A stretch of 40,708 bases of DNA. It comes from Rickettsiales bacterium. GTDB lineage: Bacteria; Pseudomonadota; Alphaproteobacteria; Rickettsiales; Deianiraeaceae. Where the stretch lies: NCBI GenBank assembly GCA_017477855.1, contig JAFUUN010000062.1:1-40708 (forward strand). Reading direction: 5' to 3'. Of this stretch, positions 35,614 through 35,713 are shown one piece after another. The notes below the pieces were generated by a model. That model was not told the DNA's origin, searched no databases, and saw only the letters and a list, made by a program, of their open reading frames with translations. A program made the translations under genes and the position numbers. Within the stretch, counting starts at the first letter, position 1, and every line of letters starts with the position of its first letter.

Positions 35614-35713
35614 TGGTGGTGCTTGCCCGAGGCCACGCCCTCGCCGTTTGCAATCTCCTCGCTCCGCTACGCTCCACTTCGTCCAGCAAACGCGCTCCGC
35701 GCCTCGCACCACC
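35614..35713 (+). repeat. GC-rich palindromic element, CAATCTCC-core type, with compensated variant termini
   Basis: TGGTGGTGCTTGCCCGAGGCCACGCCCTCGCCGTTTGCAATCTCCTCGCTCCGCTACGCTCCACTTCGTCCAGCAAACGCGCTCCGCGCCTCGCACCACCA. It lies between the convergent stops at 35602 and 35719. Confidence 0.9.

What the first reader, a model, noticed from the sequence alone, without database searches (positions are those of the whole stretch)
35614..35713. One element copy carries three compensated substitutions in its terminal inverted repeats
The family termini are TTGTTGCGC ... GCGCAACAA. This copy has TGGTGGTGC ... GCACCACCA. Positions 2, 5 and 7 of the left terminus are changed, and each change is mirrored by the complementary change about 90 nt away in the right terminus. 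The interior is nearly identical to the 7725-7812 copy. Three independent compensatory pairs in one copy are hard to explain by drift. They imply either strong selection on terminal pairing (a DNA or RNA hairpin as the functional form) or a mechanism that copies one arm from the other, such as hairpin-templated repair or single-strand hairpin processing as in REP/RAYT or IS200/IS605 systems.
Basis: seen in the sequence. Interest (0 to 1): 0.62.

Follow-up and report, generated by a model that had tools for sequence, protein, structure and literature searches.

The report
Hairpin repeat copy with mirrored end changes
One copy of a GC-rich hairpin-forming repeat in a rumen Rickettsiales genome has non-standard ends that still pair perfectly; these ends mark an old, propagated sub-lineage of the repeat rather than a one-off event, and the family as a whole keeps its two ends complementary far more often than chance allows.

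Summary
At 35614-35714 an element has ends TGGTGGTGC...GCACCACCA, a perfect 9-bp stem, instead of the family's TGTTGCGC...GCGCAACA.

Caveats:
- This copy is 3 nt longer than the reference copy, so "three substitutions" depends on the alignment register.
- The conserved family stem is 8 bp, not 9.

The variant ends are not private to this copy. The same GTGGTGC/GCACCAC ends occur at a second full copy and one contig-end left arm in this genome. They occur at three loci in each of two sister species, one locus orthologous in all three, and on three metagenome contigs. One of those contigs reproduces this exact junction. The change therefore predates speciation and was propagated.

Across the family (about 180 copies per ~1 Mb genome, three species only), mirrored arm changes are strongly enriched: 8 observed against 0.5 expected, and 6 against 0.4, with 0 of 20,000 shuffles reaching either. 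One-sided changes are still four times more common.

Nothing points to an RNA function: no orientation bias, no G·U strand bias and no terminator-type flanks. Four family searches found no RAYT/IS200, TnpB, DDE_Tnp_1 or rve transposase in the three genomes.

Best reading: a DNA-level hairpin repeat whose arms stay complementary through selection and/or arm-to-arm templated correction. It is a new member of a known kind.

The parts
35614..35622 (+). Left terminal arm, variant type TGGTGGTGC (family consensus TGTTGCGC)
   Evidence: Read directly. Pairs with 35706-35714 in all RNA and DNA folds of both strands.
35623..35624 (+). Unpaired spacer TT (one nt in most copies)
   Evidence: The same TT spacer is shared with loci B and C of G002 and G004.
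35625..35644 (+). Conserved left module (core GCCCGAGGCCACGCCCTCGC)
   Evidence: 173-180 matches genome-wide with at most 3-4 mismatches.
35645..35650 (+). Inner stem, left half (CGTTTG)
   Evidence: Pairs with 35687-35692. Family-wide covariation G-C 117, A-T 15, broken 5 (helix 2).
35651..35686 (+). Central C-rich module of the '76' type, one of about 8 interchangeable module types
   Evidence: The orthologous locus B in G004 carries the '63' module between the same variant ends.
35687..35692 (+). Inner stem, right half (CAAACG)
35693..35705 (+). Conserved right module CGCTCCGCGCC plus the extra TC spacer. GCCTC can pair with GAGGC of the left module.
   Evidence: MFE structure.
35706..35714 (+). 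Right terminal arm, variant type GCACCACCA (family consensus GCGCAACA)
   Evidence: Exact reverse complement of 35614-35622.
34649..35602 (+). Left flanking gene (IspA-like, 317 aa). Its stop codon lies 11 nt before the element.
   Evidence: Orthologs in G002 and G004 are followed by the same variant left arm but a different remainder.
35719..37608 (-). Right flanking gene (629 aa), convergent. Its stop codon lies 4 nt after the element.
   Evidence: The G004 ortholog (99% identical) lies next to a complete variant-end element with the '63' module.
7715..7812 (+). Reference copy with consensus ends and the '76' module
4255..4338 (+). Family copy, '63' module, consensus ends
14220..14304 (+). 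Family copy with a one-sided change (GTTGCGC / GCACAAC)
16284..16390 (-). Family copy in the opposite orientation
17421..17508 (+). Family copy, '68' module
27117..27202 (+). Family copy, GCCCGCGG subfamily, 8-bp stem GTTGCGCC/GGCGCAAC
28776..28888 (+). Family copy, '91' module
29786..29866 (+). Decayed family copy
32879..32936 (+). Family copy with its centre deleted
40599..40708 (-). Family copy at the window and contig end
   Evidence: Elements lie at 18% of contig ends.

Best explanation
The 101-nt sequence at 35614-35714 belongs to a family of GC-rich, modular, hairpin-forming intergenic repeats. The family has about 180 copies in each ~1 Mb genome and is restricted to one clade of rumen Rickettsiales MAGs. 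Each element has an 8-bp terminal stem, a conserved left module, an inner stem, an exchangeable C-rich central module and a conserved right module.

The non-consensus ends are the signature of a small, old sub-lineage (GTGGTGC...GCACCAC). That sub-lineage arose before the three species split and was copied to at least three loci. They are not three fresh mutations in this copy.

Shown: the two ends of an element stay complementary far more often than chance allows.

Inferred mechanism: the ends pair within one DNA strand, as a hairpin or cruciform, for example on single-stranded DNA during replication. A change in one arm is then either removed, matched later by a second mutation under selection for pairing (a wobble intermediate is seen at one orthologous site), or copied onto the other arm in one step by intra-element template switching (quasi-palindrome correction). 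The one-step route would account for the multi-base and transversion-type mirrored changes such as this one.

Also inferred: interiors are replaced by exchange with other copies while the ends persist. This would explain a standard '76' interior between old variant ends.

The activity that spreads the elements is unknown. No RAYT/IS200-type enzyme was found in these assemblies.
For: Family and architecture.

The variant ends form a subfamily:
- G000 C99:7519 is a full copy, and C7:5948 is a left arm at a contig end.
- G002 and G004 each have three loci, and locus A is orthologous in all three species.
- Three metagenome contigs are true members. L244 has the identical 101-nt element between the same two genes, although its flanks are only 93% identical. 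This rules out an assembly chimera and a private mutation.

Pairing is enriched:
- Exactly complementary non-consensus arm pairs: 8 against 0.53 expected (G000) and 6 against 0.39 (G004), 0 of 20,000 shuffles.
- 94.9% of cells paired, 8 of 16 pairs changed on both sides, covariation 0.179 against 0.068, flat slid controls.
- Inner stem: G-C 117, A-T 15, broken 5.
- At least 8 distinct mirrored end types occur, including the transversion-type GTTGCGG/CCGCAAC, GTTGCGA/TCGCAAC and GTTGGGT/ACCCAAC.

Stepwise path: G000 C69 has GTTGTGC/GCACAAC where the G004 ortholog has GTTGTGC/GCGCAAC (pair 84). Locus A in G002 carries a G·T.

DNA level rather than RNA level:
- No orientation bias relative to genes, 71 against 61.
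- One-sided transitions give a wobble on the C-rich strand 38 times and on the G-rich strand 30 times.
- 8 against 11 on the inferred RNA strand.
- The terminal stem closes the fold on both strands.

Interior exchange: orthologous sites carry different modules or the opposite orientation. Locus B has the same ends with the '63' module in G004 and the '76' module in G000.

Precedent: compensatory changes are common in REPIN hairpins (PMC3116915). Template switching gives multi-base mirrored changes in a single event (PMC8794818).
Against: - One-sided changes outnumber mirrored ones (111 against 25 cells). Neither selection for pairing nor arm copying is therefore strong.
- Locus C in G002 and G004 joins the variant left arm to a near-consensus right arm.
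- The counts are not phylogenetically independent.
- Nothing here separates template switching from stepwise compensation. 18 of 25 mirrored cells are transition-type, which the classical wobble route explains.
- The register of the variant against the consensus is ambiguous.
- The RNA-strand test has low power (19 events).
Hairpin or cruciform formation in vivo is not shown.
- The genomes are 82-85% complete MAGs, so a mobilising enzyme could have been missed.
Confidence: 0.6

Rival explanations
1. RNA-level structure. The elements are transcribed as part of mRNA 3' ends, and the hairpin acts as a terminator or stabiliser. Arms stay complementary through classical stepwise compensatory evolution via G·U intermediates.
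For: - This copy and 30 others lie between convergent genes, and 60 lie between tandem genes.
- A wobble intermediate is seen at an orthologous site (pair 84). Locus A in G002 has a G·T.
- There are 12 G·T against 1 C·A at inner-stem pair L3/R6 on the C-rich strand.
- 18 of 25 mirrored cells are transition-type.
Against: - No orientation bias relative to genes (71 against 61).
- No G·U excess on the inferred RNA strand (8 against 11) or on either strand overall (38 against 30).
- The hairpin is preceded by a T-rich flank and followed by an A-rich flank, the reverse of an intrinsic terminator.
- 21 elements sit between divergent genes.
- No Rfam match.
- Transversion-type mirrored pairs have no wobble route.
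Confidence: 0.2
2. Symmetric protein recognition. The elements are MITEs whose two inverted ends are bound as double-stranded DNA by one transposase or another dimeric protein. The ends must therefore match each other, and sub-lineages with co-changed ends reflect what the protein tolerates rather than base pairing.
For: - 8-bp terminal inverted repeats, high copy number, sites filled in one species and empty in another, and propagated end variants.
Against: - No DDE_Tnp_1, rve, Y1 or TnpB homologue in three genomes, with the controls positive.
- At least 8 different mirrored end types, which is too many for one protein's specificity.
- An inner stem far from the ends covaries as well.
- No clean target-site duplication at filled/empty sites.
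Confidence: 0.1
3. REP/RAYT or IS200/IS605-type system. Single-stranded hairpins are cut and moved by a Y1 HUH transposase, and mismatches in the hairpin intermediate are repaired.
For: - Hairpin-forming interspersed repeats with compensated arms resemble REPINs.
- There is no target duplication.
Against: - No PF01797 match at E<=1 in G000, G002 or G004, although the control genomes ring.
- No TnpB.
- The units are single 81-120 nt modular hairpins, not doublets of 20-40 nt REPs.
- The ends lack the GTAG-type 5' motif typical of REPs (my own knowledge of REP literature, not tested against a library).
Confidence: 0.07
4. Chance or assembly artefact. The complementary ends would be a coincidence, or the contig a mis-join of two elements.
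For: - Elements break the assembly: 46 of 250 contig ends carry element sequence.
- The window copy joins flanks that lie apart in G002 and G004.
Against: - An independent metagenome contig has the same junction and an identical element, with flanks 7% diverged.
- The same ends are found in three genomes.
- 0 of 20,000 shuffles reach the observed complementarity.
Confidence: 0.02

Closest known systems
REPINs / REP elements with RAYT (Pseudomonas, E. coli)
   Same: High-copy extragenic palindromic repeats that fold into hairpins. Compensatory changes on the two sides of the hairpin are common (PMC3116915). They are vertically inherited and clade-specific.
   Different: No RAYT gene was found in three genomes. 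The unit is one long modular hairpin rather than a doublet of short REPs. It is GC-rich in an AT-rich genome and has exchangeable central modules.
BOX elements of Streptococcus pneumoniae (from my own knowledge)
   Same: Modular interspersed repeats with conserved terminal modules that pair and a variable middle. No transposase of their own is known.
   Different: No sequence relationship. The middle of a BOX element varies by the copy number of boxB, whereas here it is one of several unrelated C-rich modules. The host lineage is different.
Rickettsia palindromic elements (RPE) (from my own knowledge)
   Same: Palindromic repeats of about 100-150 bp that proliferated in a Rickettsiales genome with no identified transposase.
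   Different: RPEs are often inserted in frame inside protein genes and are not GC-rich. Here the copies are essentially intergenic, about 70% GC, and absent from 200 other genomes of the order.
GC clusters and double-hairpin elements of fungal mitochondrial DNA (from my own knowledge)
   Same: Short GC-rich palindromic elements scattered through an AT-rich, reduced genome. They are mobile without a known dedicated enzyme and are associated with rearrangements.
   Different: Those occur in organelle genomes, are shorter (30-50 bp), and have no comparable modular left, centre and right architecture.
Quasi-palindrome template-switch mutation (Ripley model; PMC8794818, PMC5453318)
   Same: It explains mirrored multi-base changes and the perfecting of hairpin arms in a single replication event, which is the pattern seen in this copy.
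   Different: It is a mutational process, not an element family. Its operation here is inferred, not demonstrated.

Membership tests
REP/REPIN-RAYT system | A cognate RAYT (Y1 HUH transposase, PF01797) encoded in the same genome | tested here: not met
   No match at E<=1 in G000 or in G002 and G004. 10 of 14 control genomes ring. The genomes are 82-85% complete.
REP/REPIN-RAYT system | High-copy extragenic repeats that form hairpins with compensated arms | tested here: met
REP/REPIN-RAYT system | The unit is a pair of short (20-40 nt) inverted REPs separated by a spacer | tested here: not met
   The unit is a single 81-120 nt hairpin with asymmetric left and right modules. Only 8 + 6-8 bp are complementary.
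IS200/IS605-derived elements | TnpA (Y1) and/or TnpB present, with subterminal hairpins and no terminal inverted repeats | tested here: not met
   No PF01797 and no PF07282. The elements do have terminal inverted repeats.
MITE mobilised by a DDE transposase | Terminal inverted repeats | tested here: met
   8 bp TGTTGCGC/GCGCAACA.
MITE mobilised by a DDE transposase | Target-site duplication flanking each copy | tested here: inconclusive
   14 filled/empty site comparisons show ragged junctions with no clear direct repeat. The flanks are AT-rich and about 10% diverged.
MITE mobilised by a DDE transposase | A parent insertion sequence or transposase in the genome | tested here: not met
   No PF01609 or PF00665 in the three genomes. 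Other transposase families were not searched.
Intrinsic (Rho-independent) terminator | GC-rich hairpin followed by a U-run on the transcribed strand | tested here: not met
   The 3' flank is A-rich (45% A, 34% T) and the 5' flank is T-rich (47% T), so on either strand a U-run precedes the hairpin rather than following it.
Any described RNA family (Rfam 15) | A match to a covariance model | tested here: not met
   Only a tRNA in the window at the gathering threshold. Nothing better than E=3.3 on the element.
Rickettsia palindromic elements | Frequent in-frame insertion into protein-coding genes | tested here: inconclusive
   139 of 180 copies lie outside the crude ORF calls. Most overlaps are with short ORFs created by the element itself. 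One case inside an 835-aa ORF (C46) was not examined.
Rickettsia palindromic elements | Sequence similarity to RPE-1 to RPE-8 | not tested
   No RPE sequences were at hand. The covariance model found nothing in 200 genomes of the order.

The most novel reading that the evidence does not exclude
The family is a transposase-free, self-templating hairpin repeat. Its conserved stems would act as handles for replication template switching and short-homology exchange. Ends would then be copied arm to arm, and central modules swapped or inverted at fixed genomic sites. That would make it a cassette-like system that also drives the 1-3 kb scale genome shuffling seen between these sister species.
Probability: 0.15. 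Interest if true: 0.7.

Novelty: new member of a known kind. Interest (0 to 1): 0.36.

Why it matters
The result converts an apparent one-off, three compensated substitutions in one copy, into a documented sub-lineage with a history that can be traced across three species and several metagenomes. That history gives a small natural experiment on how hairpin repeats keep their arms complementary. Wobble intermediates, uncompensated hybrids and multi-base mirrored changes all occur in the same family.

It also shows that a reduced endosymbiont-type genome with none of the four transposase families searched can carry about 180 copies of a repeat. These copies sit at rearrangement breakpoints and change their interior between sister species. 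This is relevant to how reduced genomes are reshuffled and to MAG assembly quality, since 18% of contig ends are elements.

The specific phenomenon, compensated hairpin arms in interspersed repeats, is already known from REPINs.

Tried and rejected
- Rfam at the gathering threshold and at a permissive E-value: nothing on the element.
- Searches for Y1_Tnp, TnpB, DDE_Tnp_1 and rve in the three element-bearing genomes: all negative.
- Orientation relative to genes: unbiased. This rejects a C-rich rut-site or strand-specific sRNA idea that I had considered because of the strong C>G skew.
- G·U against A·C asymmetry, overall and on the inferred RNA strand: none.
- Pairing beyond the 8-bp stem: at chance level. 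The hairpin does not extend into variable flanks, and the ends are not target-derived.
- Assembly chimera at the window junction: rejected by the independent contig L244.
- Greater conservation of orthologous elements than of their flanks: only modest (94.3% against 90.0%, 8 pairs), so I make no claim of strong purifying selection.
- Clean empty sites or a target-site duplication: not found.
- Which arrangement is ancestral, the fused one in G000 and Ga0247610 or the separate loci B and C in G002 and G004: I could not resolve this. The counterparts of the other flanks in G000 (C59, C36) are only 73-82% identical and may be paralogous.
- My first automatic right-arm picker gave false picks and was replaced.
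- A covariance-model search of 200 genomes of the order and a BLAST of 30 relatives: no further carriers.

Full report
**What is there**

The window is contig C41 of a 955-kb, 125-contig, 38.7% GC assembly. Earlier notes of this scan call it Rickettsiales-like. Its two closest relatives carry public titles 'uncultured Rickettsiales bacterium SRR873596_bin.56' and 'Rickettsiales bacterium RGIG3562 Goat_Rumen'.

At 35614-35714 lies a 101-nt, roughly 70% GC element. It sits between two convergent genes: 34649-35602 on the + strand and 35719-37608 on the - strand. Its ends, TGGTGGTGC (35614-35622) and GCACCACCA (35706-35714), are exact reverse complements. The mirrored differences at positions 2, 5 and 7 are therefore real. 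The finding's end coordinate is one base short.

**The family**

A 20-nt core, GCCCGAGGCCACGCCCTCGC, occurs 173-180 times in the genome in both orientations. 139 copies have both ends within a contig.

Written on the C-rich strand, the architecture is:
- T-GTTGCGC, then one spacer base;
- the core;
- an inner stem, (C/G)(G/A)TTTG;
- a C-rich central module of one of about eight types (lengths);
- the other half of the inner stem, CAAA(C/T)(G/C/T);
- CGCTCCGC(G)CC and a variable spacer;
- GCGCAAC-A.

The conserved terminal stem is 8 bp. The T-A pair outside GTTGCGC/GCGCAAC is present in 70% of copies, and further out pairing is at the level expected from base composition. No Rfam family matches. 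On both strands, with RNA or DNA parameters, the terminal stem closes the predicted fold in both the variant and the consensus copy.

**Register caveat**

The variant copy is 101 nt against 98 nt. It has TT rather than T between the left arm and the core, and an extra TC before the right arm. If the arms are aligned by their distance from the conserved modules, the comparison becomes GTTGCGC>GGTGCTT and GCGCAAC>TCGCACC. That gives one mirrored pair and a stem shifted two bases outward. 'Three compensated substitutions' is therefore one of two defensible descriptions. What is robust is a perfect 9-bp helix built from non-consensus sequence.

**Is it unique to this copy?**

No. Pattern searches in the three element-bearing genomes show GTGGTGC...GCACCAC ends at several places:

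| Locus | Where found | Ends and content |
|---|---|---|
| A | G000 C99:7519, G002 C26, G004 C28/C80 (same flanks, so orthologous in all three species) | GTGGTGCGA/TCGCACCAC; G002 has GTGGTGCGG, a G·T |
| B | G004 C30:2899 (full copy next to the ortholog of the 629-aa gene), G002 C3 (contig end) | Full element with the short '63' module in G004; both variant ends seen in G004 only (TTGGTGGTGC/GCACCACCAA, a 10-bp stem). G002 C3 is cut within the inner stem, so only its left end is seen |
| C | Behind the IspA-like gene in G002 and G004 | Variant left arm and first 15 nt of the core, then a decayed AT-rich body and a near-consensus right arm ATGCAACA |

A left arm, GTGGTGCGCT, also lies at the end of G000 contig C7.

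The window copy combines the left flank of locus C with the right flank of locus B. A metagenome scan found three more true members. Contig Ga0247610_10175479 has the window's arrangement exactly. It is 93% identical over 2.1 kb, yet identical over all 101 nt of the element. The junction is therefore not an assembly chimera. This matters because elements sit at 46 of 250 contig ends, against 3% of random windows.

The variant ends therefore predate the species split and were propagated. Loci B and C share the 12-nt left end including the TT spacer but have unrelated upstream flanks, so the ends belong to the element and not to the target.

**Do the arms really covary?**

Yes, at family level.
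- In G000, 20 copies have a non-consensus left heptamer, and 8 of these have an exactly complementary right heptamer. Shuffling the right arms gives 0.53.
- In G004 (155 cores, 122 complete copies, fetched) the figures are 6 against 0.39.
- None of 20,000 shuffles reaches either value. The window copy is not counted here because of its register.

Distinct mirrored types include ATTGCGC/GCGCAAT, ATTGCGTG/CACGCAAT, GTTGTGC/GCACAAC, GTTGCGG/CCGCAAC, GTTGCGA/TCGCAAC, GGTGCGA/TCGCACC, GTTGGGT/ACCCAAC and GGTGTGG/CCACACC.

On a 33-sequence alignment, 94.9% of cells pair and 8 of 16 pairs change on both sides. The covariation score is 0.179 against 0.068 (0 of 500), and all slid controls are flat. 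The inner stem shows G-C 117, A-T 15 and only 5 broken.

Pairing is nevertheless not strict. One-sided changes outnumber mirrored ones 111 to 25 cells, and the counts are inflated by shared ancestry.

**RNA or DNA?**

- Orientation relative to neighbouring genes is unbiased. On the 5' side of the C-rich strand, 71 genes run toward the element and 61 away. Convergent, divergent and tandem contexts number 31, 21 and 60.
- One-sided transitions give a G·T on the C-rich strand 38 times and on the G-rich strand 30 times.
- Where the transcribed strand can be inferred, the count is 8 wobble against 11 A·C.
- The 5' flank is T-rich and the 3' flank A-rich, the reverse of an intrinsic terminator.

Nothing points to an RNA-level, strand-specific role. 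The power of these tests is low, and no RNA data could be consulted.

**Mobilising enzyme**

Searches in the three element-bearing genomes:

| Family searched | G000 | G002 and G004 | Threshold |
|---|---|---|---|
| PF01797 (Y1/RAYT/IS200) | no match | no match | E<=1 |
| PF07282 (TnpB) | no match | no match | E<=0.1 |
| PF01609 (DDE_Tnp_1) | no match | no match | E<=0.1 |
| PF00665 (rve) | no match | no match | E<=0.1 |

The control genomes ring in every search. These are 82-85% complete MAGs, so absence is not proven. Membership of the REP/RAYT or IS200/IS605 systems nevertheless fails its defining test.

**Dynamics**

The family is confined to three sister species whose orthologous proteins are 90-99% identical. 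It is absent from five other genomes of the genus and 23 further relatives by BLAST, and from 200 genomes in 127 genera of the order by covariance model.

Synteny blocks between the three species are only 1-3 kb long and often end at elements. Among 23 sites with both flanks conserved between G000 and G004, many carry different central modules. One carries an element in the opposite orientation, and three keep only half-element remnants. Sites filled in one genome and empty in the other exist, but they have ragged junctions and no clear target duplication.

One site shows a compensation caught half-way: GTTGTGC/GCACAAC in G000 against GTTGTGC/GCGCAAC in G004. Orthologous elements with the same module are slightly more conserved than their flanks (94.3% against 90.0%).

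**Explanation**

Shown:
- a hairpin-type repeat family;
- enrichment of arm complementarity;
- a propagated, pre-speciation variant-end sub-lineage to which the window copy belongs;
- exchangeable interiors;
- none of the four transposase families searched.

Inferred: the arms pair within one DNA strand. Mismatches are resolved by selection for pairing through a stepwise route, of which one intermediate is seen. Alternatively they are resolved by arm-to-arm templated correction, that is, quasi-palindrome template switching. That process is known to give multi-base mirrored changes in one event (PMC8794818) and would account for the seven transversion-type mirrored cells and this copy's block of changes. 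REPINs provide the closest precedent for compensated hairpin arms in interspersed repeats (PMC3116915).

I cannot separate the two routes with the present data. The rivals are RNA hairpin function, symmetric protein recognition, a RAYT-type system, and artefact. Each is scored in its own section.

**Verdict**

Noticed in passing
window 27100-27117 and 3' of 27202; G000 C10:12091, C14:2663, C101:2080, C34:2525, C79:23367: Copies of the GCCCGCGG subfamily are preceded by ACAAGCTATTGATTTAT and followed by AAAATCAATACAAAAATTTAACA. The two flanks are partly inverted complements, which suggests an AT-rich outer extension of the palindrome or a larger composite unit.
   Followed up: no
window 7819-7837; also G000 C48 and C66: Solo right-end fragments (CAGCTCCACGCTGGCGCAAC) lie a few bases 3' of full copies, as if a second, truncated element abuts the first.
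   Followed up: no
G000 genome-wide (contig ends): 46 of 250 contig ends carry element sequence, against 3% of random 130-nt windows. The repeats fragment the MAG assembly.
   Followed up: yes
window 34594-35642 and 35614-38963 compared with G004 C71 and C30: Synteny with the sister species holds only over 1-3 kb blocks at 87-92% identity, and the blocks often end at elements. This points to very frequent rearrangement in this clade.
   Followed up: partly
G000 C76:13576 compared with G004 C36:20971; also pairs 11, 17, 47, 104, 122, 129 and 136: At orthologous sites the two species carry elements with different central modules, and in one case the opposite orientation. Interiors are being replaced in place, or the same sites are hit repeatedly.
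   Followed up: partly
G000 C46:9164-9276: An element lies inside a crude 835-aa ORF call (7828-10333). This could be an in-frame insertion of the kind seen with RPEs, or two genes fused by the stop-free element.
   Followed up: no
window 35546-37666 compared with metagenome contig Ga0247610_10175479 (L244): A fourth lineage is 93% identical over 2.1 kb but 101/101 identical within the element (0.93^101 is about 7e-4). This suggests homogenisation or constraint on this copy.
   Followed up: partly
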